Positions 1-48,931 of a stretch of DNA of 64,000 bases are shown piece by piece. The notes under the pieces were generated by a model. It saw only the letters and a list, made by a program, of their open reading frames with translations, had not been told where the DNA came from and ran no database searches. The position numbers were made by a program, and so were the translations under genes. Positions within the stretch are counted from its first letter, which is position 1; every line of letters starts with the position of its first letter. Source of the DNA: Candidatus Saccharimonadia bacterium (lineage in GTDB: Bacteria > Patescibacteriota > Saccharimonadia > CAILAD01 > BJGX01); NCBI GenBank assembly GCA_039738635.1, contig JBCLLN010000001.1:42806-106805 (forward strand), given 5' to 3'.

Positions 1-438
1 AAATATTTTGAATGGGAAAGAAAAGGCATTCCACTCAGGCTTGAAGTTGGACCTAAAGATATTCAAAAAGAATCAGTTGTAGTCGTGGACAGAATCCTAG
101 GCAAGAAGGAGTTTGTTCAAAATGTAAAAAGAGCTCCTTATATAAAGGAAAGTTTGGAAAATATGCAAAAAACCTTACTCGAGAAATCAAGAAAGTTTAG
201 GTTAGAAAATACTCGTGAGGTTTCAGATTATGAAGAATTTAAAAAAGTTATGAATGAAAAATCCGGTTTTATCTTTGCTCATTTATGTTTGAATAAAAAT
301 TGCGAGGAAAAAATAAAAGAAGAGACAAACGCTAGCAGTAGATGTATCCCTTTTGATGGGGGTCTAGATAATACTGGTAAATGTATTTATTGCAAGAAGG
401 ATGCTCCTAATAAAGTCTTGTTTGCGAAGGCTTATTAA
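1..438 (+). CDS. proS: Prolyl-tRNA synthetase, 3' portion (5' truncated at window edge); archaeal/eukaryotic-type with C-terminal Zn-binding domain ending in conserved Tyr
   Basis: Frame-1 ORF is open from base 1 with no stop until 436-438. The translation KYFEWERKGIPLRLEVGPKD...CKKDAPNKVLFAKAY matches the ProRS C-terminal region and the Cys-rich Zn-domain/terminal Tyr signature. Confidence 0.75.
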   Translation, partial: KYFEWERKGIPLRLEVGPKDIQKESVVVVDRILGKKEFVQNVKRAPYIKESLENMQKTLLEKSRKFRLENTREVSDYEEFKKVMNEKSGFIFAHLCLNKNCEEKIKEETNASSRCIPFDGGLDNTGKCIYCKKDAPNKVLFAKAY

Positions 439-446
439 TCTTCGTT

Positions 447-3400
447 ATGAAAAATGTAGTTTCTTATTTTGAAAATCAGGTTACTAAATATCCTGATAAG
501 ATCGCTATTGAATATAAAAATTCAGTTATCACCTATTCAAAACTTAATGAGAAGTCAAACGAGCTTGCTCATTATTTATTGGGACTCAATGTTAAAAAAG
601 ACGATACGATCGCCTTGTTTTTAAGCAAATCAGTCGGGATGATATCGAGTATTTTTGGTATAGAAAAAACAGGTTGCGCTTACTTGCCCATAAATACCAA
701 TTACCCGATCAGTCGAGTGTTAGATATTTTAAATGATTCAAAAAGTAGGGTTTTGGTGACTGAACATAAGTTTAAAAATATAGCTCTGGAAGTTTTCTAT
801 AATGCTCCAATTGTAGAAAAGTTGATTTTTCTCGACAAGGATAATGGGCCTAAGACAGATTTCACCAATAGTAAAAAGTTATGGAATTTCGTATCCACTA
901 AAGATGATTTAATAGAATCTTCCGGATGGATTAGTAGTTATACGAAAAAGCCATTTAGTCGTTTAGAAATTGATGAACTGGTCGGAAATGTTGTTTCAAA
1001 AATTTCCGCTAATCTTAATAAAGATGCTACGGTATTGGAAATCGGGTCAGGTAGTGGTCTGATCGTAAAAGAAATAGCTCCAAAAGTGAGCAAGTACATT
1101 TGCGCGGACATATCTGACATAGTTTTGAAAAAATCAAAACAAATATTTCAGCATGAAGGAATAAATAATGTCGAATTTTTGCAAATAGATAATAACAACG
1201 CCTTTGATTTGAAGGATAAAGTAGATGTTGTAATTATTAACAGCGTTGTTCAATTTTATATAAACTATGGCGAATTAGAAAAAGTAATATTGCATTGTTT
1301 AGATAAGATAAATGAAGGGGGCATTGTTTTTATTGGCGATATTAGAGACCCTGAATTACGGGATTCCTTTTATGAGTCATTGTTACAGGAAAGTGAATCT
1401 ACCATTGATAAGAGCAGAGTCAATGCTATTGCCTTGAAGAAAAGTCTCGATAAAGATTTGTATGTGAACAAAAAATTCTTTATTGAGCTTTCAAAAAAAG
1501 CCACGAGAGTAAAATCCGTGGAGCTTTCCAATAAAATTGGCAAGCTCAAGAACGAGCTTTCGCTGTATAGGTATGACGTAGTCATTAAAAAGAAAAATAA
1601 TAGTACATCAAAAAATCTTGATAATTCAATAGTGTGTTTACCTGACATAAGGCATCTATCTGTTAATAATCCAAATATTGCAATTGATAATCAACAACTT
1701 GCGTATGTGATCTATACATCTGGTTCAACTGGAAAGCCCAAAGGAGTAATGATTGAACATGGTTCATTGTTCAACAGACTCAATTGGATGCAGAATGAAT
1801 ATTTTTTAGATGGGAATGATAAGATACTATTCAAGACCCCATATTCGTTTGATGTTTCTGTTTGGGAAATATTTTGGTGGTCGATGTACGGTTCACAACT
1901 CGTAATTCTTGAGGATGGCTTCGAGGGTGACCCACAAAAAATATTGGAAATAATTAGGATAAAAAATGTATCTATTTTGCATTTTGTTCCGTCGATGTTG
2001 AACGTGTTTCTTTCTTACATTGATACAAACAAAATTAATCTCTCCAGCGCCTCCCCTAAAAAGGTTTTTACGAGTGGTGAGACTTTGACGGTCGATAGTG
2101 TGAATAGATTTAAAAGATTGTTCAGCGTAAACGGCACAGAACTCCATAATCTTTATGGTCCCACAGAAGCTGCTATCGATGTCACGTATTTTGATTGCGA
2201 CAATCTATCTAAATCGAGCAAATTTGTACCTATCGGTAAGTCTATTCCTAATAATAAGGTTTTCATTGCCGACAAGAATCTAAACAAGGTGCCAAAGGGT
2301 GAAGAAGGTGAAATAGTAATTCAGGGAATAAATTTAGCAAGAGGTTACCTTAATAGTAAAGTAAAGACTGATGAGAGTTTTGTTATAGATCCATTTGGTG
2401 TTAGGACGTACAAGACCGGAGATTTTGGGGTTGAGCTTCCTGATGGAAATATTAAGTATTTGGGCCGTAAAGATAATCAGGTAAAAATCAGGGGTAATAG
2501 AATAGAGTTGGATGAAATTTGGAAAGTGATTTTGGAGAACTCGAGTATTCCAGAGTGTTGCGTTATTGATAGTGATGAGTTAAATGAGGATAAAAAAGTA
2601 ATCTGCTTCTACATATCCAACCAACCAATACACGAAGAAGGTCTTGTTCAAATTTTAGGACGTTATCTTCCAGCTTATTCCATTCCAAATCTTTTTATCA
2701 AAATTATAGAAATACCTACAACTTTACACGGAAAACTGGACAGAAACAAGTTGTTAAGTCTAGTTAATCAGGATGTTTCTATTGTTGCTGATAGTGAACA
2801 AAAAACATATACACAAACCCAACAATCTATTATTAAAATACTAAAGAATCATCTCAAAACAAAAGTAGGGATTGATTCTGATTTTTTCAGAATGGGTGGC
2901 AATTCCCTGCTTGCAATGGTTGTTATCAATGAAATTAACACCGAATTTAAAATAAAATTGTCAATAAGCTCTTTCTTTAAAAATCCGACTCCGTCGAAAC
3001 TTGCACATATCATTGATACACAAGAAAAGGAATTACGAAATGTAAATTTTAATCTGAAAATTCCAGCCGGAATATACCCTGCAAGCCATAATCAGATAAG
3101 AAGTTTTTTTCTTAATAACCTCGATAATTTTAGATTTTATAACATTGTGCAAGTTTGCGAATTGACTGCAAACACTGATTTAGATCGCCTAGAAAAGGCA
3201 ATAGAACTTGCTTTAAATAGCCATGACATTTTCAGAACTCTCCTTGTTGAGCACAAAGGTGGCATTTATCAAAAAATAGATAAATCTTCGAAGATAAAAG
3301 TGTCGCGACTTGAACTGGATGAAGTCGGGATGGAACAATTTATCAAAAAACAAAAAGAGTCTAGGATTGATCTGTGTAAAGATTTACCGATAAAGATTTT

Positions 3401-6400
3401 TCTAATAAAGAAAGGGCTGAAAAATCTTTTACTAATGAATATTCATCATTCAGCTTGCGATGCCAGGTCCCTTGAAATTTTAAACACCCAAATTTCCAAG
3501 TTTTATATAGATCCAAATAGTAAAGGTGGTAACCTGCCTAGCACATATATTGATTTTTCTTTGGCCGAAAGAGATACGGTGGCAATTGAAATGGAGAAGT
3601 CAGAATTTTTCTGGAGAAACTACTTACATGCATATACAGATACAAAATTGCCTATTGATCTAAATTTCAAAAGAGATGGCACTTCGGATGGATCACGATT
3701 ATTGAAACTCAAGATTAGTAAGAGTATTTCTAAAAGCATTTTAAAATATTGCCATAATAATGGCATTACAGAATTTAACCTTTTTATAACGCTTTTCACC
3801 ATTTTCTTATCAAAGATATCTTCCGAGCCAGAAGTTATTATAGGCACACCTATCGCCAATCGTATTGAAGAAAATTTTTGGGAAACCATTGGGTACTTTA
3901 CAAACACCGCACCCTTAAGGCTCAAGGTTGATAATAAATCAAGCTTTAGAGAACTATGTTCAGCCTTCAGGGGAAACTACTTGGAATGCATGGATAACGC
4001 TTTTGTTCCTTTTGACAAACTTATCGACAAGATAGGAGTTAAAAGAATTCCAAATACAAACCCTGTTTTTCAAACGCTATTTAGCTTCAAGGAAGCCTCC
4101 ACATTAAGGGAAGATTATATTCTTTCTGGGTCGCAGATAGTTTCTGATGAAGCTGGAGATATGAGTTTGATTTTTGACGTGATAAAGAGAGAAGCTAATT
4201 TTGAAATAAACTTAAGATTCAATTCTAAATTATTTCTACAGGATACTGTCAATAGATTTTTAGAGCACTTCGAGATCTTGGTACAAGCTATCTTTTCACA
4301 AGATATGGTTGATACGGAAATCGGAAAAATTAAAATAATGAATGAGAGACAAACCAAAGAGATAATTAGATTGTCTACGGGCAAAAGAGTGCCGTTTAAT
4401 AAAAAAAAGAAACTTTTCGATTATATTATAGAAGGTGCCCTCTTGAATCCGAAACGTATTGCCATCATCGATCATGACCGTTCTATAACGTACAAGGAAT
4501 TGGCTGAAAGAATCTTTAATTACGCCTATTTCTTGAAACAAAATGGGATAAAAGAGGGTGATTCTGTTCCAGTGATCATGGATAGGAATATTGCTTCGCT
4601 GGTATCAATATATTCAGTTATGTATTGTGGAGCGGCATATATACCCGTTGTTCCAGAGTATCCTGTCGAGAGAATCAGAAATATTATTGAAAGTAACGGG
4701 ATTTCAACTATTGTGAATGCAAGTAATTCTCACGAACTTGAAACCGAGCTAAGGAAAACATCACCCGAATTGTCTTGGTTGGATTACGCCGAGAATATCA
4801 GTGATATAAAGGCATTAGCTTTCAAAATCAAAAGGGATGAAGCAGATATTGCCTGTATATTTTATACATCCGGCTCAACGGGCAAACCAAAGGGTATTCT
4901 GTGTCCCCATTCTGGATATATAAATATTTTTGATTACATCGCACAAAAATATTCTTTAACCAAGAAGACGGTAGCTGGTCATACCTCCAATTTTACATTT
5001 GATATTTCTCTCGGGGTAATGAACGCCGTGTTCAGCAAGGGCGGTACTCTGATGCTATTTTCGTCCGATGAACTAAAAGATCCTGAACAAATCAGGATGG
5101 GTTTGATAAGAAACAAAATTAACTTTGTGCATTTTGTACCTACCATCCTAAATCATTTAAATCTAGAAGACATAGAATTGGAGTCCCTCGCTTCGGGTGC
5201 TGAAAAAATTTCACCGAGTTTAGCAAAAAGTTTATCTACCAAATTCAGTTTTTTCTTTGAGTACGGTCCGACTGAATCATCAATTTTTACAACAGTGTGG
5301 CAAAGGAGTGGTGAAGAGGTCATTGACGTAGTCCCTATCGGGAAACCAGTTGACAATACTAGAGTATATATTTTGGATGAGAATTTAAATTTCGTGCCAG
5401 TCGGAACTCCTGGCGAGATTTATATTGCTGGCGTTGGGGTGTCTAATGGGTATTTGAATGATCTTGATAAGACAAAAGAAGTTTTTATTCAGGACAAACT
5501 GAAGCCGACACAATACATGTATAAAACCGGGGATATCGGAAAATTTATTCATGACGGCAACATCGTATTCCTAGGCAGAAAAGACAATCAGATAAAAATC
5601 GGTGGTTACAGAATTGAAATCGGTGAAATCGAGAATCTGGCATTGAAGCACGAAGATGTATCCTCTTGTTTTGTTGACCTTCAAACAAATGACTCTGGAT
5701 TTTCAAGTATTATTTTGTACTACTCCTCAAAGAAAAAAATTGAGGGCCGAATTTTGAAAGCGTACTTGAGAGAATTCCTCCCTAATTACATGATCCCGGC
5801 TAAGGTGGTTTATGTGTCCAAGATGCCAAATAGGGTGAACGGGAAGATAGACGTCGATAAACTCAGACAAATCAAGGATGCATACGATATTCTCAACGAA
5901 GACTTAACACCAGAACAGAATATCATTAAAAATATATGGTGTAAGACACTAAACATTACCACACTAGATCTGTACAGTGACTTTTTTGAATTGGGCGGTA
6001 GTTCTTTGAAGATACTAGAGACAATCTATTATTTAAGGAAGGACTGTAATATAACTGTCTCAGTATCTGATTTTTACAGAAATACTATATTCAAAAACTT
6101 TTGTGATATTGTTTACTCTAAAAATGAACCTACTGGTGAGATGGCTAAAAATTTATTTGAAAAACCGATAAAACAAAAAATTAAAATACGAAATTTAACA
6201 ACAAGCAATAAAAAGGTTTTATTGACGGGCTCCACTGGTTTTCTTGGTGCACATATACTTAAGGAATTGATCGTTTCAGATTATTTCAGTAGTATTTGCT
6301 TACTTTTGCGCGGTCGAGATTTATTTGAAGCAGAGGGTAAAATTAGAGAAGAATTTAAGTTTTATTATCCCCATATAGATTTAGCAAAGACCAAGGTGAT

Positions 6401-7256
6401 CTTGGGTGAGCTTTCCATTAAGGATCTGGGAGTATCCAAAAAAGATAAATCGATTTTAACGGATGTCGACATCATAATTAATTGTGCAGCTAAAGTGCAG
6501 CATCTTGGAAAGCAAGAGGACTTTGAAAAGATCAATGCATATTCAGTAAAAAACATCATTGAAACTATAGGAAAGAAAGATCTTGAGTTTATTCAAATAT
6601 CTACATTGTCAATATTTGGAAAAGCACCTAATGACAGGGATGTTGTTTATGAGAATGACCTAGGAATAGGTCAAACTTTTCATAATTTTTATGACGAGAC
6701 GAAATTTAAGGCAGAGGTTTATCTAGAAGATTTTTATAAATCTGGGGGTAGAGGCGGTATTTTTAGATTGGGAAATATCATGAATGAATCTGACACAGGG
6801 CTTATGCAGAAGAATCTTGAAGAAAACGCATTCACGATGATGTTTCAATCAATTATCAACACAAAGAATCTTTGGGGGTTAGATAAGTATATAACAAATA
6901 TATCGCCAGTCGATAAATGTGCTGAATTTATTGTTAAATCAATCTGTAATTATAATTTACAAGGCAATACTGTTAATGTTTATAATCCAAATCTTATTTC
7001 CATGGGCGAATTAGTACAATTCGTAAACCACATGGGAAAATACGATATATCTGAGCTAAACAATGAGTCGGAAATGCCTGAAAAATATGTACCCTACTTA
7101 ACTAATTACTTAAATGCGGAAAAAAGAAGTGCTGTAAGGTACGATAGCACCAACTTCAATAAAATAGCAGAAGATCTGAAGTTTTCTTGGCCAATAATAG
7201 ACGCACCCTATGTGTCAAAAATTATTAAGTATATGATAAAATGTAAAATAATATGA
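447..7256 (+). CDS. Two-module non-ribosomal peptide synthetase: A(MT-interrupted)-T-C-A-T-R
   Basis: A1: A3 motif YTSGSTGKPKGV near nt 1714, NLYGPTE, YKTGD, GRKDNQVKIRGNRIELDEI. SAM-MT motif I VLEIGSGSG near nt 1032, inserted between A2 (AYLPINTNYP) and A3. T1: FFRMGGNSLLA near nt 2883. C: HHSACDA near nt 3445. A2: YTSGSTGKPKGI near nt 4862, EYGPTE, YKTGDIG, GRKDNQIKIGGYRIEIGEIE. T2: FFELGGSSL near nt 5982. R: Rossmann LLTGSTGFLGAHIL near nt 6221. Confidence 0.9.
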   Translation: MKNVVSYFENQVTKYPDKIAIEYKNSVITYSKLNEKSNELAHYLLGLNVKKDDTIALFLSKSVGMISSIFGIEKTGCAYLPINTNYPISRVLDILNDSKSRVLVTEHKFKNIALEVFYNAPIVEKLIFLDKDNGPKTDFTNSKKLWNFVSTKDDLIESSGWISSYTKKPFSRLEIDELVGNVVSKISANLNKDATVLEIGSGSGLIVKEIAPKVSKYICADISDIVLKKSKQIFQHEGINNVEFLQIDNNNAFDLKDKVDVVIINSVVQFYINYGELEKVILHCLDKINEGGIVFIGDIRDPELRDSFYESLLQESESTIDKSRVNAIALKKSLDKDLYVNKKFFIELSKKATRVKSVELSNKIGKLKNELSLYRYDVVIKKKNNSTSKNLDNSIVCLPDIRHLSVNNPNIAIDNQQLAYVIYTSGSTGKPKGVMIEHGSLFNRLNWMQNEYFLDGNDKILFKTPYSFDVSVWEIFWWSMYGSQLVILEDGFEGDPQKILEIIRIKNVSILHFVPSMLNVFLSYIDTNKINLSSASPKKVFTSGETLTVDSVNRFKRLFSVNGTELHNLYGPTEAAIDVTYFDCDNLSKSSKFVPIGKSIPNNKVFIADKNLNKVPKGEEGEIVIQGINLARGYLNSKVKTDESFVIDPFGVRTYKTGDFGVELPDGNIKYLGRKDNQVKIRGNRIELDEIWKVILENSSIPECCVIDSDELNEDKKVICFYISNQPIHEEGLVQILGRYLPAYSIPNLFIKIIEIPTTLHGKLDRNKLLSLVNQDVSIVADSEQKTYTQTQQSIIKILKNHLKTKVGIDSDFFRMGGNSLLAMVVINEINTEFKIKLSISSFFKNPTPSKLAHIIDTQEKELRNVNFNLKIPAGIYPASHNQIRSFFLNNLDNFRFYNIVQVCELTANTDLDRLEKAIELALNSHDIFRTLLVEHKGGIYQKIDKSSKIKVSRLELDEVGMEQFIKKQKESRIDLCKDLPIKIFLIKKGLKNLLLMNIHHSACDARSLEILNTQISKFYIDPNSKGGNLPSTYIDFSLAERDTVAIEMEKSEFFWRNYLHAYTDTKLPIDLNFKRDGTSDGSRLLKLKISKSISKSILKYCHNNGITEFNLFITLFTIFLSKISSEPEVIIGTPIANRIEENFWETIGYFTNTAPLRLKVDNKSSFRELCSAFRGNYLECMDNAFVPFDKLIDKIGVKRIPNTNPVFQTLFSFKEASTLREDYILSGSQIVSDEAGDMSLIFDVIKREANFEINLRFNSKLFLQDTVNRFLEHFEILVQAIFSQDMVDTEIGKIKIMNERQTKEIIRLSTGKRVPFNKKKKLFDYIIEGALLNPKRIAIIDHDRSITYKELAERIFNYAYFLKQNGIKEGDSVPVIMDRNIASLVSIYSVMYCGAAYIPVVPEYPVERIRNIIESNGISTIVNASNSHELETELRKTSPELSWLDYAENISDIKALAFKIKRDEADIACIFYTSGSTGKPKGILCPHSGYINIFDYIAQKYSLTKKTVAGHTSNFTFDISLGVMNAVFSKGGTLMLFSSDELKDPEQIRMGLIRNKINFVHFVPTILNHLNLEDIELESLASGAEKISPSLAKSLSTKFSFFFEYGPTESSIFTTVWQRSGEEVIDVVPIGKPVDNTRVYILDENLNFVPVGTPGEIYIAGVGVSNGYLNDLDKTKEVFIQDKLKPTQYMYKTGDIGKFIHDGNIVFLGRKDNQIKIGGYRIEIGEIENLALKHEDVSSCFVDLQTNDSGFSSIILYYSSKKKIEGRILKAYLREFLPNYMIPAKVVYVSKMPNRVNGKIDVDKLRQIKDAYDILNEDLTPEQNIIKNIWCKTLNITTLDLYSDFFELGGSSLKILETIYYLRKDCNITVSVSDFYRNTIFKNFCDIVYSKNEPTGEMAKNLFEKPIKQKIKIRNLTTSNKKVLLTGSTGFLGAHILKELIVSDYFSSICLLLRGRDLFEAEGKIREEFKFYYPHIDLAKTKVILGELSIKDLGVSKKDKSILTDVDIIINCAAKVQHLGKQEDFEKINAYSVKNIIETIGKKDLEFIQISTLSIFGKAPNDRDVVYENDLGIGQTFHNFYDETKFKAEVYLEDFYKSGGRGGIFRLGNIMNESDTGLMQKNLEENAFTMMFQSIINTKNLWGLDKYITNISPVDKCAEFIVKSICNYNLQGNTVNVYNPNLISMGELVQFVNHMGKYDISELNNESEMPEKYVPYLTNYLNAEKRSAVRYDSTNFNKIAEDLKFSWPIIDAPYVSKIIKYMIKCKII
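955..1350 (+). other. SAM-dependent methyltransferase domain embedded in NRPS A1 between core motifs A2 and A3 (approximate bounds)
   Basis: VLEIGSGSGLIVKEIA (motif I), DVVIINSV (motif II-like), NEGGIVFIGD (motif III-like). Flanked upstream by AYLPINTNY (A2) and downstream by YTSGSTGKPKG (A3). Confidence 0.7.
6180..7253 (+). other. C-terminal thioester reductase (R) domain of the NRPS, SDR-type, NAD(P)-binding (approximate bounds)
   Basis: KVLLTGSTGFLGAHILKEL (TGxxGxxG Rossmann motif) follows directly after the second PCP and runs to the stop; Y..K region YDETKFKAEVY. Confidence 0.7.
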
Positions 7257-8458
7257 GTAATATCTACAGTGAATTGTATCCTTTTCATTCTTGGGGAATG
7301 AAAATCGTAAGAGCAGAAGGAGTTTATTTATTTGATGAAGCTGGTAGAAAATTTATAGACTTAACTTCTTCTGCGAGTGTTGCAAATATTGGATATGCAA
7401 ACGAGAGAGTAATCTCAACGATGCGAACACAACTTGGTAAATTAATTTTCTGTCCGCCGTGGTGCATATCAGACGAAGCAGAAGAGCTCTCAGGAAAATT
7501 GATACGGTTATTTCCAAAATATTTGGATACGATTTTGAGAGTTACAACCGGCAGTGAATCCGTAGAAGTCGCTTTGAAGTTGGCGAAAAAATATACAGAA
7601 AGATCTAAATTTTTAAGTTTTGAACATTCTTATCATGGACACACAATCGCCTCAATGGCGATTGGCATGAATGATGGAACTAAGAAAGACTTCCTACCCC
7701 TCATAGAGTCAGACACATTGAAACATCCACACATTGCCAACGGGATACATATGACCGAATCAGATTTATCCAAGACTCTTGCTGAAATAGAAACAAGACT
7801 TAGTACAAAGGAATATGCGGCATTCGTTACGGAAACAATGGCTACAAGCGCGGGGAATTATATGCTTCCAAAAAGTTTTTTCGCGCACCTTAAAGAAATT
7901 TGTAGCAAATACGGGACATTATTGGTTATCGATGAAGTGTTAACAGGATTTGGAAGAGCTGGAAGAATGTTTTCTTTTGAAAGATTTGAAATCCAGCCAG
8001 ATATTGTTTGTATAGCCAAGGGGCTTGGGTGCGGTTATTCTCCGATAGCTGCCGCAATTACAAAAAAAGAAATTGCTGAAGGTTTTGATTATTTCGCAAC
8101 TTTCGCATGGAATCCATTAGCTTGTAAAACAGCGTCTGCTGTTTTAGATGAATATAAGAGATTAGATCTTGTAAAAAACTCTGAAAATGTGGGCTCAGAG
8201 GCTTTGTTGGAATTACAACAAAAACTTGGTAGCAATTTAAATGTTAAAGAAATTAGGGGGGCAGGCCTAAGGATCTCGATTGAGTTTAACAACGAACATT
8301 TCTTTAAGAAAGTAAAAGACAAGCTGTTGGTAAATGGTATTTTTTCTGGCTCGGCTGACTTGCCCAGTATATTAATTATTAGTCCGCCCCTATGTATTTC
8401 TTTAGAGGAAATGAAGTATGTTATTGCCACCATAGTTAATTGTGTTAACAATGAATAA
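7253..8458 (+). CDS. Class-III PLP-dependent aminotransferase (acetylornithine/GABA aminotransferase family)
   Basis: DEVLTGFGRAGRMF and PLP-lysine context CIAKGLGCG. ATGA start/stop overlap with the NRPS stop. Confidence 0.8.
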   Translation: MSNIYSELYPFHSWGMKIVRAEGVYLFDEAGRKFIDLTSSASVANIGYANERVISTMRTQLGKLIFCPPWCISDEAEELSGKLIRLFPKYLDTILRVTTGSESVEVALKLAKKYTERSKFLSFEHSYHGHTIASMAIGMNDGTKKDFLPLIESDTLKHPHIANGIHMTESDLSKTLAEIETRLSTKEYAAFVTETMATSAGNYMLPKSFFAHLKEICSKYGTLLVIDEVLTGFGRAGRMFSFERFEIQPDIVCIAKGLGCGYSPIAAAITKKEIAEGFDYFATFAWNPLACKTASAVLDEYKRLDLVKNSENVGSEALLELQQKLGSNLNVKEIRGAGLRISIEFNNEHFFKKVKDKLLVNGIFSGSADLPSILIISPPLCISLEEMKYVIATIVNCVNNE

Positions 8459-9104
8459 AATATCTGACGTGTTAATTTATCGGATCCCACTTACTAGAAC
8501 TGATAAATATACACCCAGAAATACAAATAATAATCTGCCATGTACTAACGCAAAAAATAAGTTTAGTGCAGGTCTTTACTTCTGCTCACTAATTTTGAAA
8601 AAAGATTTTAGAGTTTTTGCCAAAAAGTATATTTTCAATACAAATGGAAAGCCCATTTTGGAATCAGGAGAATGTGAATTTAGTATCTCCTATACGGATG
8701 ATCATGTATATATAGCAATAGTTAGAAGCGATATGATTGGTCTTGACGCTGAGAAGATTAAAGTTATTAATCTCAATGTTTCTAAGGAATTTATGTCAGA
8801 AAGAGAATTAGTAAAATTAAAGAGAACAACAAATAAATACAAATACTTCTATAAAATATGGACACTTAAGGAATCGTATATAAAACTCATTGGTTCAGGA
8901 ATTGATAATTCAATAACCGACATAGAATTTATCGAGGATAAAAACGGAAAAATCTCCATAGCTAAAGAAATTACCCCAAAAATATATTTTAGTAATTTTG
9001 TATCAAAAGATTGTATAATATCAGTTGCTTCGTTTAATTTAGTTAATTTCGAGATTATAGAATTTGATAACGCGAAAGAATTTTTAAAAAAATATGGCTA
9101 TTAA
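8451..9104 (+). CDS. Sfp-type 4'-phosphopantetheinyl transferase
   Basis: PPTase motifs GLDAEKI (GxD..E) and WTLKESYIKLIG (W/F-x-x-KE-x-x-x-K). The ORF begins at 8442; the ATG at 8451 (MNKISDVL) is chosen as start. Overlaps the aminotransferase stop. Confidence 0.7.
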   Translation: MNKISDVLIYRIPLTRTDKYTPRNTNNNLPCTNAKNKFSAGLYFCSLILKKDFRVFAKKYIFNTNGKPILESGECEFSISYTDDHVYIAIVRSDMIGLDAEKIKVINLNVSKEFMSERELVKLKRTTNKYKYFYKIWTLKESYIKLIGSGIDNSITDIEFIEDKNGKISIAKEITPKIYFSNFVSKDCIISVASFNLVNFEIIEFDNAKEFLKKYGY

Positions 9105-9840
9105 TACCCCAAATAACTTACCAGAGAAGCAATTAAAGGCATTTGCGGATATTGCAGAGAATCTTTTAAGTAATACAGAAATTGACACTTTATTTTTTTC
9201 AGGTTCTTTTTATCATGGCGACTCTGGACCTAATTCAGACCTAGATTTTATTGCAATTACGAAACCTGAATTTGATTATTCTCAGAGAATACAAGACATA
9301 AGTAATGGAATATTTTATGAACTATTTATTTATTCTGAAAATCAATTAAAAAAATCTTTTGAACGAATGGACTATCAGGACATGCATATGGTCGGTTATG
9401 GTTTCTTGGTTTTCTCAAAGAGTCAAAATTTTGAAAGTATTAAAAAACTTGCCAAAAGCTTGTTTGAAAAGGGACCAGCCAAGATATCAGATAATCAATT
9501 TGAATATGAAAAATATTTATTGTGGGATAAATATCATGATATTCTAGATATTATAATTAAGGATTCTAACTTAGCTGAGTCGCTTATGAATATATTGTTA
9601 TGGGATGCCCTAAGGCTTTTATATGTTGATAAGCGTATCTGGTTTCCTAAGCAGAAAAGATTATTTGAATCACTTATTAAGATTGATAGCGATATCTATA
9701 ACTTGGTTTGTGAGTTTCTAAATTCAGATAATGATAAGAAATATTTATTAGGTAATATTGCAAGAATAGTAGAAAATATAATTTACCCAAATAAACTTTC
9801 TGATCCGTTCATCTGGCAGAGTGAGAAAAAGGTCTTGTGA
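9094..9840 (+). CDS. Pol-beta-fold nucleotidyltransferase domain protein (aminoglycoside/KNTase-like NTase fold)
   Basis: FFSGSFYHGDSGPNSDLDFIAI fits the hG[GS]...D.D nucleotidyltransferase signature. Overlaps the PPTase gene by 11 nt, so it is the last gene of the operon. Confidence 0.5.
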   Translation: MAINTPNNLPEKQLKAFADIAENLLSNTEIDTLFFSGSFYHGDSGPNSDLDFIAITKPEFDYSQRIQDISNGIFYELFIYSENQLKKSFERMDYQDMHMVGYGFLVFSKSQNFESIKKLAKSLFEKGPAKISDNQFEYEKYLLWDKYHDILDIIIKDSNLAESLMNILLWDALRLLYVDKRIWFPKQKRLFESLIKIDSDIYNLVCEFLNSDNDKKYLLGNIARIVENIIYPNKLSDPFIWQSEKKVL

Positions 9841-10038
9841 TTATTTTGGCGAGGTTCCATCATCCTTCTGGGAACGTCGCGGTAAGATTATTGTTGATTC
9901 CCTACTCTGTATACTCATTCTAGCTATACTAGTTTTGGTTATTAAATTACTTAGCTCCTAATTGACTTATAATAACTGTATTAAGATGTTGGGAAACAAA
10001 ATTCACACTTAGTGGTTATAGTTAGGTGGTGGTTTTAA

Positions 10039-12095: not shown

Positions 12096-12390
12096 TTGAC
12101 AAGGCGCTTATGATGTGCTAAGTTATCCTTACAACTGAATAAGCCAAAAAAGCGATTTAGTTGGGAAAATGGTCCCAACGAGCTGACTTGTGAACCATCC
12201 TACGGGAAAGTAGCAAGCTCCGGAAGAAGTCCGTTATCATACTTCAACCAACGCCACCCCCTGGGTAAACTGAGTTGGTACAGAGGTTAGCCTAGCAATA
12301 GGCTGGCGAAGCAAGGTGGCACCACCATAACGGTCCTTGCAAGTTCTTGAAGCTGTATAGCTTTGGGAGTTTGCAAGGGCTTTTTAGTTG
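12096..12390 (+). ncRNA. Candidate structured non-coding RNA (about 250 nt) or long structured 5' leader; family not identified
   Basis: TTGACA (12096-12101), 17-bp spacer, TAAGTT (12119-12124). No convincing ORF. Long-range complement ggttcacaa (12061) / ttgtgaacc (12188), hairpin AGCCTAgcaaTAGGCT (about 12288-12303), and terminator-like CCTTGCAA(12335)...TTGCAAGG(12378)-GC-TTTTT(12381-85). Confidence 0.2.
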
Positions 12391-29821: not shown

Positions 29822-31198
29822 TTATTGAGCTCTATGGACTAGTGTGCCCACCTGGGTATCACTGGCTACAAGGCCATGCTGACTTAAGAGTTTAGCTCGC
29901 AATGAATCTGAGAGACTAAAGTTCTTGTCTTTTCTTGCTAGCTCATAGCTATCTATCACTTCTAGCACTTCTGAGCTTAGTGGATTATCAACTATAATAC
30001 CAAGCCCCATAATATCATCTACCAGCCTCATAGCTTCCCTGGCGTCAACTGTATAGACCTTGCCTTCTATTAGGCGGAGTGCCGAGAGAGCCTTGGGGGT
30101 ATTAAGGTCATCACTAAGGGCCTGCTTAAACTCGGTGATGAACTGCTTAGTTTTTCCTGTATCATCAGCTTCTGGTAACTGCCCTACCCTAGCTAGCATT
30201 AGCTGGTCGGTGTAGGTGCGGATATTTTTAAGGCGCTCCTCTGCCGAGCTAATATCAGCTAAACAAAAGTCCATTTGGCTACGATAGTGAGCGCTGAGAA
30301 TTAAATACCTGAGGGCCATAGGGTCATTGATATCCTTAAGGGTCATGATATTGCCAAGTGATTTGCTCATTTTCTGAGACTTAATACTAAGATGCTCATT
30401 GTGAATATAATAATTAGCCTGCGTACCGCCACATTGAGCAAGCTCGTTCTCGTGATGTGGGAACTTCAAATCAACCCCCCCAGTATGAATATCAAATGGC
30501 TGACCCAAGAACTCCGTACTCATAGCCGAGCACTCTATATGCCAGCCTGGTCGGCCTGGATAATTTTTGCCAGAGATATTAAAATCCCAGAATGGCTCCC
30601 CTGGTTTGTGTGCTTTCCAGAGTACAAAGTCAGCCACTCCTTCTTTTTGATCCTGATCGTTGGTGACACGCGCCCTGGCACTAAAATCCAAGCTAACTAG
30701 CCTTCCATAGGTCTTTCCAGAGGCGATGTAATTTTTGACACTAAAATAGACACTTCCATCGGATACATATCCTATGCCATCGCTAATCAATTGGGTAATG
30801 ATGGTTTGAATGGGCGCAATGAAGTCAGTGGCCCTTGGCAAGTGGCTTATATCGTCTCGCCTAATACCGACCTTTTCGATATCATCAAGGAATATGTCAG
30901 TATACTTATCGGCTAATTTATTGATGGCATCAAGAGGCTCTTGGTTGGGGTAACTCTCGGAGGCTCTAGCTATCATCCTGTCGTCAATATCAGTAATATT
31001 CATGACCCAATCAACATTAAGACCCTCTAGCCTAGCTAGCACTCTCTGTAATAGGTCGGGCATTAAAAAGGCCCTAATGTTTCCGGCATGAATACGATCA
31101 TAGACAGTTGGTCCACAGCTATAAATACTTGCACTACCGGGGTTAATGGGTATAAAATCTTGCTTCTTATTGGTCAGCGAGTTGTAAAGCTTTAGCAT
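29822..31198 (-). CDS. cysS: Cysteinyl-tRNA synthetase
   Basis: HAGNIRAF (HIGH-type), KMSKSLGN, Zn-ligand CGPTVY...HIEC pattern. Confidence 0.9.
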   Translation of the reverse strand: MLKLYNSLTNKKQDFIPINPGSASIYSCGPTVYDRIHAGNIRAFLMPDLLQRVLARLEGLNVDWVMNITDIDDRMIARASESYPNQEPLDAINKLADKYTDIFLDDIEKVGIRRDDISHLPRATDFIAPIQTIITQLISDGIGYVSDGSVYFSVKNYIASGKTYGRLVSLDFSARARVTNDQDQKEGVADFVLWKAHKPGEPFWDFNISGKNYPGRPGWHIECSAMSTEFLGQPFDIHTGGVDLKFPHHENELAQCGGTQANYYIHNEHLSIKSQKMSKSLGNIMTLKDINDPMALRYLILSAHYRSQMDFCLADISSAEERLKNIRTYTDQLMLARVGQLPEADDTGKTKQFITEFKQALSDDLNTPKALSALRLIEGKVYTVDAREAMRLVDDIMGLGIIVDNPLSSEVLEVIDSYELARKDKNFSLSDSLRAKLLSQHGLVASDTQVGTLVHRAQ

Positions 31199-43317: not shown

Positions 43318-45105
43318 TTACTTATCTTTAGATCTTTTTATGCTTAAGCGCTGTTCGGACGCGGCCCGACTAAGGCCATACGCGTTATGATCAACATAAC
43401 TCATGGCATTGCCAATAACCGGATCTACGGCACAAACTAACTTGTGCATTTGCTGGCCCACTTTGCGATATGCGGGGTGGCCATCTCGGCCGGTGCGCAG
43501 TTCCAGCATAAACATCAACGCCCTGGCGTTAATATTCATTATTACTCGCATCCGATATGCCAAGCAAGTGACATACTGGGCTGATAGCGGGTAGTCTGGC
43601 GAAAGTAACATGTATAGCATGCGGCTAAGATCCATAGCTTGCTTATAAAGCACAGTTTGACCCATGTCCTCAATGACTGGAGACATTGTCCACCCTAGCG
43701 ATGGTCCAACTTCCCCCCACTCCATAGTCAGTAGACGGTGGCGTTTCCAGTCACGCATAATGCCAAAGTCAATTAACATATCAAAAGAGTAAGTGGCATG
43801 TTCAAAAGCTCTTCCAGGCTTCCACCGACGGTTGCCGGTGGCGCTATCAAAGCTTCCACGGTCGCCACAATAGGCAGTTACCAGCCGCTCTTGAGCTTGT
43901 GGGCCAATACTATTGGCTAGCTCACGGCTCTCAAAAAAGGTTTGATTTGTCGAGCTTTGCTCAAAAATGATAGCCGAAGCTACCTTGAGTAGGTTGTCTG
44001 GATCGCTCCAGCCTAGCGCTACCTCATTATCACTTAGCTCGGCTCTGCTAGTGCCAGTGGCTTTAGTGTTTTGCTTTTCATAAGCACCTACCAGCTCTTT
44101 GACGCTAGCCCGAGTATCTCTTTTATATTTAATCCATTCAAGACCCTTTTTAGGGTCATCAACTTGATTAAAAAATGCCGGAGATGCATCAGGATGGCGA
44201 AGCTCGGTAAGCGCCAATAGGCCGATAGCTCTGGCCTCTGGAAGACCGGAGCTCATGAGCCGTCGAAGCATATTAGCGGCTGCTTGAGCACTGCCATAAA
44301 AGCCAACATTACTAACAATGCCAGCAGGCAGAATAGGCCGAACTGCATCCAGAGCCTGGGCTTTAATTGAAGCTTGGTAGGCCCTGTTATCTCCATCAAA
44401 TTCACTTCTGGGATTTTGGGTCTGGAAGTACTCTTTGGCATGCTCGAGCATCTGTTGGTAGATACCAAACAACTGATCCATTGCTTGGCAATAGTGCTTA
44501 CCATGACGCCCGTCCAAAATACTAGAAGGTAGGTAGTAGCGGAAACGGCCATCGGCCATAGCTAACGAGTAATCAATATAGCGAGTGGACTGCTCAAGAT
44601 AAGCAGCCAGCCTTCCCCTCTCAATTTCATTGATTACAATATTACTTACCTGCTCAAAGACAATATGTACTCCACCAATCTGGCTCACCGAATCGTCCCC
44701 GTACTCATCAAAAATCCGCCGATAAAGATTCTCGGCATGGTCCGTTGAAAAGATAGGGTCTTGAGATTCCCTAGCCAAGGTTTTGGCTATATAGTAAAAA
44801 CAGCTTGATGGATTGTCTTCCCAAGCTTTTTCAGCTTCGGTTTGCGAGATAAATTTAGCCATGCATGATATGGCTATCTCCTTTCTTGCTACAAACTCAT
44901 CTAAGAAAAGTCGCCTGGTACTCTTAGGGCTCCGTGAATATCGAGCAAAAAGCGCTCCTATCAGTATCTGGGGCAAGTTAATGGGGCAAAACACTGGCCC
45001 ATCGATATTGGTGAAGTACTGACGAAGGATATATGCTTCATTCTCGGTAAAGCTCTCCACCACATACACACTGCCGGAGTTGGGGATGGCCATGAATTGC
45101 TCCAT
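43318..45105 (-). CDS. thyX: Tandem (pseudo-dimeric) ThyX/Thy1-like FAD-dependent thymidylate synthase domain protein, 595 aa
   Basis: C-terminal half carries RDWKRHR (RHR motif) and NINARALMFMLELRTGRDGH (ThyX ...NAR.L..F..LR...H). The N-terminal half has a degenerate second copy (FARYSRS; ILPAGIVSNVGFYGSAQAAANMLRRL). Confidence 0.45.
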   Translation of the reverse strand: MEQFMAIPNSGSVYVVESFTENEAYILRQYFTNIDGPVFCPINLPQILIGALFARYSRSPKSTRRLFLDEFVARKEIAISCMAKFISQTEAEKAWEDNPSSCFYYIAKTLARESQDPIFSTDHAENLYRRIFDEYGDDSVSQIGGVHIVFEQVSNIVINEIERGRLAAYLEQSTRYIDYSLAMADGRFRYYLPSSILDGRHGKHYCQAMDQLFGIYQQMLEHAKEYFQTQNPRSEFDGDNRAYQASIKAQALDAVRPILPAGIVSNVGFYGSAQAAANMLRRLMSSGLPEARAIGLLALTELRHPDASPAFFNQVDDPKKGLEWIKYKRDTRASVKELVGAYEKQNTKATGTSRAELSDNEVALGWSDPDNLLKVASAIIFEQSSTNQTFFESRELANSIGPQAQERLVTAYCGDRGSFDSATGNRRWKPGRAFEHATYSFDMLIDFGIMRDWKRHRLLTMEWGEVGPSLGWTMSPVIEDMGQTVLYKQAMDLSRMLYMLLSPDYPLSAQYVTCLAYRMRVIMNINARALMFMLELRTGRDGHPAYRKVGQQMHKLVCAVDPVIGNAMSYVDHNAYGLSRAASEQRLSIKRSKDK

Positions 45106-48735: not shown

Positions 48736-48931
48736 AATTTTGCTTATGTTTAATTATAACTCTAATCACGCAAGCGAGCAAAACTTTTTTTAAGCCTTAC
48801 GGCCCTGCCCATCGTGGTGTATAATATGAACTCAATTATTAATAATATAATAATCACTTTTCTTGCTTAAAGAATTTAGGTTGCTTGGTGGTGGTGCTCG
48901 TACTCCCCGCTCTATTGAAAAAACTTATGTC

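What the first reader, a model, noticed from the sequence alone, without database searches (positions are those of the whole stretch)
447..2700. Interrupted adenylation domain: methyltransferase inserted between A2 and A3 (TioN-like architecture)
A1 opens with normal A1/A2 motifs (LTYSKLNEKSNELA; AYLPINTNYP). About 130 residues of a class-I SAM methyltransferase follow (VLEIGSGSG...DVVIINSV...GGIVFIGD), and the A domain then resumes with A3 (YTSGSTGKPKGV) through A10. Most interrupted A domains carry the MT between a8 and a9. The a2-a3 placement is the rarer type known from thiocoraline TioN (S-methylation of Cys). It predicts a methylated first residue.
Basis: partly seen in the sequence, partly recalled or inferred. 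Interest (0 to 1): 0.6.

Follow-up and report, generated by a model that had tools for sequence, protein, structure and literature searches.

The report
N-methylating interrupted adenylation domain
The first module of a two-module peptide synthetase really has a methyltransferase spliced into its amino-acid-activating domain, but it is the already catalogued backbone N-methylating type (predicting an N-methyl-serine start), not the rarer sulfur-methylating TioN type.

Summary
ORF 447-7256 (2269 aa) is an NRPS with domain order A(M)-T-C-A-T-R. Its first A domain is split between core motifs a2 (aa 73-83) and a3 (aa 418-433) by an insert of about 270 residues with a class-I SAM methyltransferase fold.

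The TioN reading does not hold. The insert carries the motifs of backbone N-methylating M domains: GWxSSY, VLEIGSGSG, D221, NSVVQ with N265, and NELxxYRY with three residues between L and R. Its best solved relative by sequence and by fold is the N-methylating TioS domain (5WMM). It groups with a2-a3 M domains that sit in A domains of many specificities, including Gly. The two TioN-like (type IV) sequences recovered are distant from it.

The A1 specificity code is DVWHFSLIDK, a Ser code, not a Cys code. The M insert is under purifying selection (dN/dS 0.13-0.25).

This is therefore a family-4 (A2MbA3, TtbB-like) interrupted A domain, a known kind. It predicts an N-methyl-Ser starter.

More unusual is the setting. 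A low-GC cassette of NRPS, aminotransferase, PPTase and a nucleotidyltransferase-like gene sits next to proS, and it recurs in contigs binned to candidate-phyla-radiation bacteria.

The parts
447..7256 (+). NRPS gene, 2269 aa, domain order A1(M)-T1-C-A2-T2-R
   Evidence: ORF list and translation. Pfam: AMP-binding x3 stretches, Methyltransf, PP-binding x2, Condensation, NAD_binding_4.
447..830 (+). A1 N-terminal piece (aa 1-128) with core motifs a1 (aa 28-41) and a2 (aa 73-83)
   Evidence: Pfam AMP-binding profile 1-101, E=4e-25. Motif coordinates. Model pLDDT is 86-97 over aa 1-130.
831..1661 (+). Inserted M domain (aa ~129-405). It has a disordered linker at aa 135-159, then a class-I SAM methyltransferase. 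Motifs: SGWISSY 159-165, VLEIGSGSG 196-204, KYICADIS 216-223 (D221), DVVIINSVVQFY 260-271 (N265), GGIVFIGD 291-298, NELSLYRY 369-376.
   Evidence: Pfam methyltransferase families. phmmer to 5WMM M domain, E=1.4e-18 over 228 aa. Foldseek best hit 5wmm_A, E=5.9e-16, TMq 0.69. Motif statistics in relatives. dN/dS 0.13-0.25.
1662..2756 (+). A1 C-terminal piece (aa 406-770) with a3 (418-433), a4 (468-471), a5 (568-574), a6 (621-635), a7 (655-660), a8 (673-692), a9 (741-747) and a10 (761-766). Specificity code DVWHFSLIDK (Ser).
   Evidence: Pfam AMP-binding profile 164-384, E=1.6e-49. Motifs. Code. Pocket region best PDB hits: 8xjz_C (unnamed 'Peptide synthetase') first and LgrA next, with EntF, Txo1/2 and FscH (labelled Ser-activating or serine modules in the PDB descriptions) also among the top ten.
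2799..3011 (+). T1 carrier domain. The phosphopantetheine Ser lies in FFRMGGNSL (aa 813-821).
   Evidence: Pfam PP-binding 807-855. Motif.
3069..4364 (+). Condensation domain with HHSACDA at aa 1000-1006
   Evidence: Pfam Condensation 875-1306, E=1.4e-66. Motif.
4446..5846 (+). A2, uninterrupted. Specificity code DIGHAGEIFK, substrate not assignable.
   Evidence: Pfam AMP-binding 1334-1670 and AMP-binding_C 1727-1800. Code.
5934..6131 (+). T2 carrier domain (FFELGGSSL, aa 1846-1854)
   Evidence: Pfam PP-binding, second stretch. Motif.
6213..7046 (+). Terminal thioester reductase (R) domain. NAD(P) motif GSTGFLG at aa 1928-1934; YDETK at aa 2082-2086.
   Evidence: Pfam NAD_binding_4 1926-2162, E=1.9e-33. 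Motifs.
7253..8458 (+). Class-III (omega) aminotransferase. Its start overlaps the NRPS stop.
   Evidence: Pfam Aminotran_3, E=1.3e-83. NCBIfam omega-transaminase families, all below equivalog cut-offs. Conserved next to the NRPS in L001, L002, L009, L013 and L016.
8442..9104 (+). Sfp-type 4'-phosphopantetheinyl transferase, closest to AusB
   Evidence: Pfam ACPS, E=2.5e-15. NCBIfam 4PPT_AusB, E=5e-17, below cut-off.
9094..9840 (+). Conserved 248-aa protein with a Pol-beta-type nucleotidyltransferase signature (GS...DSDLD). Role unknown.
   Evidence: Weak Pfam Polbeta hit. 40-44% identical orthologues sit in the same cassette in L009 and L013.
1..438 (+). 3' end of proS (prolyl-tRNA synthetase). 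Its stop is 8 nt before the NRPS start.
   Evidence: Pfam ProRS-C_1, E=1.4e-23. Sequence. Full-length gene in L001/L002.

Best explanation
A1 is a bifunctional, family-4 (A2MbA3) interrupted adenylation domain. The two halves of the A core fold together and activate L-Ser, or a very Ser-like amino acid, as the adenylate. They load it onto T1.

The ~270-residue type-V M domain is looped out between a2 and a3. It then uses SAM to methylate the alpha-amino group of Ser-S-T1, giving N-methyl-Ser as the starter unit.

The C domain joins the starter to the A2 substrate, which is unknown. The R domain releases the N-methyl dipeptide as an aldehyde. The co-transcribed class-III aminotransferase most likely converts that aldehyde to an amine, as MxcL does in the MxcG/MxcL system.

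Shown here: domain order, insertion site, motif integrity, relatedness, Ser-type code, purifying selection.

Inferred from the family: N-regiochemistry, methylation on the carrier-bound thioester, the order of steps, and the fate of the aldehyde.
For: 1. Insertion site and intact A fold.
- The Pfam split falls at profile positions 101/164.
- All of a1-a10 are present.
- The AlphaFold model has pLDDT 82 and pTM 0.83. Stand-alone A domains superpose across the whole chain with TM (by target) of 0.86-0.90.

2. M domain type.
- phmmer puts the N-methylating TioS M4 domain (5WMM) first at E=1.4e-18. The next PDB hit is at 1e-4.
- Foldseek on the M-only model puts 5wmm_A first at E=5.9e-16. The next hit is at 4e-11.
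- The window matches the type V motifs i, ii, iv core and vi of PMC8341866 Table 1.
- The SAM-contacting N of NSVVQ is present (N265). 93 of 97 a2-a3 relatives have N there.

3. Relatives.
- 4413 representatives match at E<=1e-10.
- a2-a3 M domains score 100-185 bits against the window's M. a8-a9 M domains score 40-108 bits.
- In an NJ tree the window falls in an all-a2-a3 clade of 16. The two type-IV-like sequences form their own pair elsewhere and rank 130th and 165th of 238 by distance.

4. Backbone rather than side chain.
- The a2-a3 relatives sit in A domains with Gly (about 16 of 95), Asn, Val, Thr, Phe, Tyr, Orn, Leu and Ser codes.
- The nearest non-orthologous relatives (P0150, P0158) are in Gly-coded domains. 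Gly has no side chain to methylate.

5. Ser code.
- A1 reads DVWHFSLIDK. The code is conserved in all cassette orthologues.
- The pocket region's top PDB hits are 8xjz_C (an unnamed 'Peptide synthetase' whose aligned pocket residues match the same code) and LgrA; EntF, Txo1/2 and FscH, labelled Ser-activating or serine modules in the PDB descriptions, also rank in the top ten.

6. Function is retained. dN/dS of the insert is 0.25 (vs L001) and 0.13 (vs L002), like the other domains.

7. Published biochemistry. M domains of interrupted A domains act on the T-bound aminoacyl thioester after adenylation (PMC11355689). TtbB module 5 N-methylates Tyr (PMC8341866).
Against: - No biochemistry exists for this protein or for any Ser-activating family-4 member that I could find.
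- Type IV and type V M domains are close relatives, and Ser is isosteric with Cys. A switch to O-methylation cannot be excluded by sequence alone.
- Motif iii (KYICADIS) and the second half of motif iv (FYINYGEL) deviate from the published type V consensus.
The type IV comparison rests on two database sequences identified by the published motifs and by Cys-like codes.
- The Stachelhaus positions were assigned by motif anchoring. They were validated only by the recovery of canonical codes in relatives, which I recognised from my own knowledge.
- The A2 substrate and the role of the aminotransferase are inference.
Confidence: 0.7

Rival explanations
1. TioN-like side-chain methylation. The M domain would methylate the side-chain heteroatom of the loaded residue. 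Here that would be O-methylation of Ser, giving an O-methyl-Ser starter.
For: - The insertion site is the same as in TioN and MarQ.
- Type IV and type V M domains are phylogenetically close.
- The A1 code is for Ser, the oxygen analogue of Cys.
Against: - The diagnostic type IV features are absent. The window has N265 where type IV has a conserved Ala, and three rather than two residues between L and R in the last motif.
- The type-IV-like sequences recovered pair with Cys-like codes and are far from the window's M.
- According to PMC8341866, no O-methylating M domain has been found at a2-a3.
- The known Ser O-methylating type II motifs (DVGxNxG, EIFxxxxY...) are absent.
Confidence: 0.1
2. The M insert is a catalytically dead or purely structural remnant. 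The NRPS would then start with plain Ser.
For: - a2-a3 interrupted A domains were originally proposed to be inactive (PMC8341866 introduction).
- Motif iii and part of motif iv deviate from the consensus.
Against: - The GxGxG motif, the acidic residue at the end of beta2 (D221), N265, D298 and the NELxxYRY motif are all intact.
- The fold is predicted with confidence.
- dN/dS of 0.13-0.25 equals that of the catalytic domains.
- The insert is retained in orthologues down to 35-38% identity.
Confidence: 0.07
3. The M domain is active but acts on a different nucleophile or at a different stage. Candidates are the amide or amine of the T2-bound dipeptide, or the amine made by the aminotransferase.
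For: - This is a small two-module enzyme in which both carrier domains could reach the M domain.
- No data on timing exist for family 4 members in initiation modules.
Against: - Characterised interrupted A domains methylate their own T-loaded amino acid and do not accept free substrate.
- The M domain is embedded in A1, not in A2.
Confidence: 0.08

Closest known systems
Family 4 interrupted A domains (A2MbA3, type V M domain; representative TtbB module 5 of thalassospiramide synthetase; Lundy, Mori & Garneau-Tsodikova 2020, PMC8341866)
   Same: - The M domain lies between a2 and a3.
- The insert is about 270 aa, against the published 270 +/- 6.
- Motifs i, ii, the iv core and vi match, and the SAM-contacting Asn is present.
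- The census finds the family mainly in Firmicutes and the FCB group. The nearest named M-domain relatives here are Fulvivirga, Roseivirga and Pedobacter.
   Different: - The domain activates Ser, where TtbB module 5 takes Tyr.
- It sits in an initiation module of an A-T-C-A-T-R enzyme.
- Motif iii and the tail of motif iv diverge from the consensus.
- The host appears to be a candidate-phyla-radiation bacterium, a group absent from the 2020 census.
TioN / MarQ (family 3, A2Ms(S)A3, type IV M domain; S-methylation of Cys)
   Same: The insertion point is the same (a2-a3), the insert size is similar, and the M domain clade is related.
   Different: - The diagnostic Ala is Asn here.
- The spacing in the last motif is one residue longer.
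- The A code is Ser, not Cys.
- The domain is not stand-alone.
- No MbtH-like partner gene is in the window.
TioS(A4-M4-A4), PDB 5WMM (family 1, type I backbone N-methylating M domain between a8 and a9)
   Same: It is the best sequence and fold match for the M domain. It shares GW.SSY, LEIG.GSG, D.S, NSVVQ, GG...GD.R and NEL..RY.
   Different: The insertion site differs (a8-a9). Type I carries about 120 extra C-terminal residues that the window's insert lacks.
AusA/AusB (aureusimine/pyrazinone NRPS A-T-C-A-T-R plus PPTase) and MxcG/MxcL (reductive release followed by transamination)
   Same: - The module order and terminal reductase are the same. AusA is the top NCBIfam hit for aa 396-2264, and AusB is the top hit for the PPTase.
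- An R domain together with a class-III aminotransferase parallels MxcG/MxcL. That parallel comes from my own knowledge; an MxcG hit appears.
   Different: - Scores are far below the equivalog cut-offs (925 against 2500 bits).
- AusA has no M insertion. Window aa 2-113 map to profile positions 413-525, and the match resumes at 529.
- An N-methylated N-terminus cannot form the neutral cyclic imine that leads to pyrazinones (inference).

Membership tests
Family 4 interrupted A domain (A2MbA3, type V M) | A single M domain inserted between A-domain core motifs a2 and a3 | tested here: met
   a2 is at aa 73-83 and a3 at aa 418-433. The Pfam AMP-binding profile breaks at 101/164. a6-a7 and a8-a9 have normal spacing.
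Family 4 interrupted A domain (A2MbA3, type V M) | M domain size of about 270 +/- 6 aa, lacking the ~120-aa C-terminal extension of type I | tested here: met
   The a2-to-a3 spacing is 334 aa in A1 and 65 aa in the protein's own A2, so about 269 aa are extra (and a count on the sequence). The alignment to 5WMM ends at the NEL..RY motif.
Family 4 interrupted A domain (A2MbA3, type V M) | Motifs mb(a2-a3) i xxGGWx(S/N)x(Y/F), ii (V/I)LE(I/L)Gx(A/S/G)xG, iii xY(V/Y/L)(G/A)(T/V/I)Dd(S/T/A), iv Dx(V/I)(V/I)dNSV(V/I)(Q/E)xF..., vi (N/F/P/S)(E/D)Lxx(F/Y)x(F/Y) | tested here: met
   - Motif i, ESSGWISSY: one G-to-S change, also seen in 21 of 97 relatives.
- Motif ii, VLEIGSGSG: full match.
- Motif iii, KYICADIS: Y, D and S kept, with three conservative deviations.
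- Motif iv, DVVIINSVVQFY: core full, tail deviates.
- Motif vi, NELSLYRY: full match.

Family 4 interrupted A domain (A2MbA3, type V M) | M domain clusters with type V rather than type I or type IV M domains | tested here: met
   Proxy test without the named references. Scores against the window's M were higher for a2-a3 M domains than for a8-a9 ones. The window falls in an all-a2-a3 NJ clade, and the type-IV-like pair is separate.
Family 4 interrupted A domain (A2MbA3, type V M) | Backbone N-methylation of the T-bound amino acid | not testable with these tools
   Only indirect evidence. Relatives sit in Gly-coded and many other A domains. The closest solved homologue is an N-methyltransferase.
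Family 3 (TioN-like, A2Ms(S)A3, type IV M) | Motif ms(S)ii Dd(V/I)d(L/I)AS(T/V/A)dQF(F/L)PxxxY(L/T), with Ala in place of the SAM-contacting Asn | tested here: not met
   The window reads DVVIINSVVQFYINYGEL, with N265 and no QF(F/L)P. The type-IV-like P0149 and P0183 read ...ILASTIQFFP....
Family 3 (TioN-like, A2Ms(S)A3, type IV M) | Motif ms(S)iii x(E/V)LxxR(Y/F)D, with two residues between L and R | tested here: not met
   NELSLYRYD has three residues between L and R. P0149 and P0183 show the one-residue deletion in the alignment.
Family 3 (TioN-like, A2Ms(S)A3, type IV M) | Cys-activating A domain, usually a stand-alone A(M)A protein | tested here: not met
   The A1 code is DVWHFSLIDK (Ser), against DLYDFSL(V/I)W in the type-IV-like sequences. 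The domain is part of a six-domain NRPS.
AusA-type aureusimine/pyrazinone synthetase (NCBIfam NF047350) | Whole-protein score above the curated equivalog cut-off | tested here: not met
   925 bits against a cut-off of 2500. The match excludes the M insert.

The most novel reading that the evidence does not exclude
The interrupted A domain is the entry point of a conserved four-gene cassette. The cassette comprises an A(M)-T-C-A-T-R NRPS, an omega-aminotransferase, a PPTase and a nucleotidyltransferase-like protein. It is genuinely encoded by ultra-small Patescibacteria/CPR bacteria and is kept next to proS for a functional reason.

In this reading the N-methyl-Ser-X aldehyde or amine, possibly nucleotidylated, would be an inhibitor related to aminoacyl-tRNA synthetases. 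The adjacent ProRS would be the target or the immunity determinant. N-methylation would serve to block pyrazinone cyclisation, so that the aldehyde survives for transamination.
Probability: 0.12. Interest if true: 0.75.

Novelty: new member of a known kind. Interest (0 to 1): 0.35.

Why it matters
For NRPS enzymology this is a further member of an under-studied but catalogued family, the a2-a3 N-methylating interrupted A domains. No member of that family has a solved structure, and very few have been tested.

A Ser-activating, initiation-module example from a compact two-module enzyme would be a convenient model. It could show how an M domain looped out of the N-terminal A subdomain reaches the carrier-bound substrate.

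The practical consequence is for structure prediction of the product. The starter should be N-methyl-Ser, not an S- or O-methylated residue.

The larger potential value lies in the context. Biosynthetic clusters are rarely reported in candidate-phyla-radiation genomes (PMC7298704, PMC9765116). This cassette recurs in many contigs binned to such lineages, always beside proS.

Tried and rejected
- Exact look-ups of the window's own NRPS, aminotransferase and ProRS in the contig index found nothing. The upstream 45 kb of the source contig could therefore not be read.
- A scan of viral contigs for the A(M) domain found no relative.
- A paper search for PDB 8XJZ, the best pocket match, returned only an unrelated paper.
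- My first Stachelhaus extraction placed positions 299 and 301 one residue too early and gave non-canonical codes. It was corrected when the relatives' codes then resolved into canonical Gly, Asn, Val, Thr, Phe and Orn codes.
- The Biopython NJ run timed out and was replaced by my own implementation.
- I considered that AusA might itself carry an a2-a3 insertion, because the match started at profile position 529. This was rejected. The window's a1-a2 piece maps to profile 413-525, so the extra AusA-model positions are N-terminal, not an insert.
- I considered a link to azetidine-2-carboxylate (proline mimic) clusters, which occur in CPR bacteria with aaRS genes (PMC11794875). This was rejected. 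Reading the 248-aa ORF (alignment) and the M insert, I found none of the AzeJ motifs (PFNxxGN, RxxYYxxC), and the M domain has the NRPS N-methyltransferase motifs.
- I considered proS to be part of a mobile cassette. This was weakened by L019, where a 90.6% identical HTH-proS locus lacks the NRPS.
- A supplementary alignment with the TioN and TtbB sequences is not held.
Full report
**What is in the sequence**

A single ORF runs from 447 to 7256 on the + strand and encodes 2269 aa. Pfam reads it as AMP-binding, methyltransferase, AMP-binding, PP-binding, Condensation, AMP-binding, PP-binding and NAD_binding_4. That is an NRPS with domain order A1(M)-T1-C-A2-T2-R.

Scanning the three pieces of the first A domain separately gives these matches:
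- AMP-binding profile positions 1-101 in aa 8-107, E=4e-25.
- Four generic class-I methyltransferase families in aa ~191-317, E down to 1e-13.
- AMP-binding profile positions 164-384 in aa 418-635, E=1.6e-49.

All ten A-domain core motifs are present. a1 is at aa 28-41, a2 at 73-83, a3 at 418-433 and a10 at 761-766.

The a2-to-a3 distance is 334 aa in A1 and 65 aa in the same protein's A2. About 269 residues are therefore extra.
- The insert is about 270 residues, not about 130.
- a10 lies at nt 2727-2744, just past the stated end of 2700.
- The a1 motif begins with I, not L.

**Is the A domain still an A domain?**

An AlphaFold2 model of aa 1-780 has mean pLDDT 82 and pTM 0.83. In the model the N-terminal piece (aa 1-128) and the C-terminal piece (aa 406-780) pack together. 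Stand-alone A domains such as ApnA-A1, PltF and DltA superpose over the whole chain with target-normalised TM-scores of 0.86-0.90. Only the entry linker (aa 135-159) is predicted disordered.

**What kind of M domain is it?**

Lundy, Mori and Garneau-Tsodikova's census (PMC8341866) gives two single-insert families at a2-a3:
- Family 3 (TioN, type IV M, S-methylation of Cys; n=64).
- Family 4 (TtbB module 5, type V M, backbone N-methylation; n=188).

A di-interrupted family 7 also exists. The published discriminators are:
- A conserved Ala replaces the SAM-contacting Asn of ...NS(V/I)xQ... in type IV.
- Type IV has two residues between L and R in the last motif, where types I and V have three.

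The window reads SGWISSY, VLEIGSGSG, KYICADIS, DVVIINSVVQFY and NELSLYRY. That means Asn265, three residues between L and R, and the GW.S.Y motif. These are the type V / type I signature.

Against all PDB sequences, the insert's best hit by far is the N-methylating M domain of TioS(A4M4A4), 5WMM. The hit has E=1.4e-18 over 228 aligned residues covering every motif. The next hit is at 1e-4. A model of the insert alone (pLDDT 77) finds 5wmm_A first by Foldseek, with E=5.9e-16 and TMq 0.69. The next hit is at 4e-11.

**Relatives**

An exhaustive HMMER search with the insert found 4413 cluster representatives at E<=1e-10. I classified the M domains of the 150 best hits by their flanking A motifs:
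- M domains at a2-a3 score 100-185 bits against the window's insert.
- M domains at a8-a9 score 40-108 bits.

In an alignment of 239 M domains, 93 of 97 a2-a3 members have Asn at the diagnostic column.

Only two sequences show the full type IV signature, P0149 aa 39-290 and P0183 aa 1615-1850. Both read ILASTIQFFP and have a one-residue-shorter NEL-R spacing. Their A domains have Cys-like codes, DLYDFSL(V/I)W. They form a separate pair in an NJ tree and rank 130th and 165th of 238 by distance from the window. The window itself sits in an all-a2-a3 clade of 16.

I did not have the authentic TioN or TtbB sequences. This is therefore a proxy test that relies on the published motifs.

**Backbone or side chain?**

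I extracted specificity codes for 95 A domains that host an a2-a3 M domain. The extraction recovered canonical codes for Gly (about 16 domains), Asn, Val, Thr, Phe, Tyr, Orn, Leu and Ser. I recognised these codes from my own knowledge.

An M clade that serves Gly and this range of side chains must act on the common alpha-amino group. The nearest non-orthologous relatives of the window's M domain (P0150 from Fulvivirga, and P0158, whose cluster-mate P0281 is from Roseivirga; 37-40% identity) sit in Gly-coded domains.

**Substrate**

A1's code is DVWHFSLIDK. It differs from EntF's Ser code DVWHFSLVDK at one position and is conserved in every orthologue examined. The pocket region's best PDB hit is 8xjz_C, an unnamed 'Peptide synthetase' whose aligned pocket residues match the same code, followed by LgrA. 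EntF, Txo1, Txo2 and FscH, labelled Ser-activating or serine modules in the PDB descriptions, also rank in the top ten. A2's code, DIGHAGEIFK, matches nothing I can name.

**Is the insert functional?**

The following residues are intact: GxGxG (G200/G202/G204), the acidic residue after beta2 (D221), N265, D298 and the C-terminal NEL..RY motif.

Nei-Gojobori dN/dS for the insert is 0.25 against L001 and 0.13 against L002. This falls within the range of the other domains, 0.10-0.37. The insert is also retained in orthologues that are only 35-38% identical.

**Mechanism proposed**

1. A1 adenylates Ser and loads it on T1.
2. The M domain transfers a methyl group from SAM to the alpha-amine of Ser-S-T1. 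The order of steps is taken from characterised interrupted A domains (PMC11355689).
3. The C domain forms N-Me-Ser-X on T2.
4. The R domain (GSTGFLG, YDETK) releases an aldehyde.
5. The translationally coupled class-III aminotransferase (7253-8458) probably converts the aldehyde to an amine, as MxcL does after MxcG.

The MxcG/MxcL parallel is an analogy from my own knowledge, and MxcG and AusA are the top NCBIfam neighbours.

A secondary N-methyl amine cannot give the neutral cyclic imine that leads AusA-type products to pyrazinones. N-methylation may therefore keep the aldehyde available for transamination. This is inference.

**Context, beyond the finding**

The genes proS(3' end)-NRPS-aminotransferase-PPTase-248-aa NTase-like ORF are tightly packed, with an 8-nt gap or overlapping stops and starts.

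The same order recurs elsewhere:
- In L001, L002 and L016, at 70-87% nt identity.
- In L013, whose NRPS is about 40% identical.
- In L009/L010, with proS on the other side.
- In L017/L018, with an extra FolC-like gene and a large serine recombinase upstream.

The cassette is low in GC (0.28-0.37) compared with the rest of the window (0.42). Nucleotide similarity to L001/L002 stops at 9844-9847.

The taxonomic signals disagree:
- The window's CysRS is closest to proteins named Candidatus Saccharibacteria.
- The cassette-linked ProRS is closest to Nomurabacteria, Parcubacteria, Paceibacterota and Levybacteria proteins.

In L019, a low-GC genome, a 90.6% identical HTH-proS locus lacks the cassette. 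proS therefore looks resident and the cassette variable.

Whether the window's low-GC segment is a real island or an assembly chimera cannot be decided here.

**Verdict**

The feature is a new member of a known kind, the family 4 backbone N-methylating interrupted A domain. Its predicted product feature is an N-methyl-Ser starter. Interest in the finding itself is modest. The CPR-associated, proS-linked cassette is the more unusual lead.

Noticed in passing
window 1-9845, against window 12000-64000: The NRPS cassette and the proS 3' end have GC of 0.28-0.37. The rest of the window has 0.42 and reaches 0.45-0.54 by 12-13 kb. CysRS (29822-31198) is Saccharibacteria-like, while the cassette-linked ProRS is Parcubacteria/Microgenomates-like. 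This is either a horizontally acquired island in a CPR genome or a chimeric contig. NRPS clusters are rarely reported in CPR bacteria.
   Followed up: partly
window 1-9840; L001, L002, L009-L011, L013, L016-L018: The cassette NRPS-aminotransferase-PPTase-~250-aa NTase-like ORF is always adjacent to proS, even in relatives whose NRPS is only ~25-50% identical across its domains. In L009 proS is on the other side. L019 has a 90.6% identical HTH-proS without the cassette. L017/L018 add a FolC-like ligase and have a large serine recombinase upstream.
   Followed up: partly
P0149 (aa 39-290 and 651-870) and P0183 (aa 1615-1850 and 2228-2457): Two database proteins carry a type-IV-like (TioN-type) M domain at a2-a3 and a type-I M domain at a8-a9 in the same Cys-coded A domain. 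This natural di-interrupted architecture is not among the seven families of the 2020 census. It would make N,S-dimethyl-Cys in cis.
   Followed up: partly
window 447-7256 against L001 1895-8704: Synonymous divergence is mosaic along the NRPS gene. dS is 0.62 in the A1 N-part, 0.12-0.17 in the M insert and A1 C-part, and 1.09 in A2. The A2 codes also differ (DIGHAGEIFK vs DVGHGGEILK; DTWLVGAICK in L009). This points to recombination or module exchange among cassette variants.
   Followed up: partly
L003 1-1260 (Saccharibacteria MAG contig CAZEUI010000002.1): A 93% identical fragment of the NRPS (window 715-1862) ends right after the a4 motif FDVSV. It is followed by about 2.5 copies of a 23-nt tandem repeat (TGTATAAGCTTGTTTACAACTCA) and then unrelated genes. 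This is either a disrupted copy or a misassembly.
   Followed up: partly
window 9094-9840: A conserved 248-aa ORF has a Pol-beta nucleotidyltransferase signature (SGSFYHGDSGPNSDLDF). It is 40-44% identical in distant cassettes and has no NCBIfam match. It may modify the product or confer resistance.
   Followed up: partly
window 12333-12380: A long hairpin with a 20-bp stem, followed by a T run, lies at the point where GC rises. It looks like a strong terminator and sits at the edge of the low-GC segment.
   Followed up: no
window 43318-45105 (-) and 48863-50956 (+): A 595-aa protein has only a C-terminal ThyX-like stretch. A 697-aa protein fuses a prenyltransferase to an HpnB/HpnI-like glycosyltransferase. 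Both are unusual architectures. I did not examine them further.
   Followed up: no
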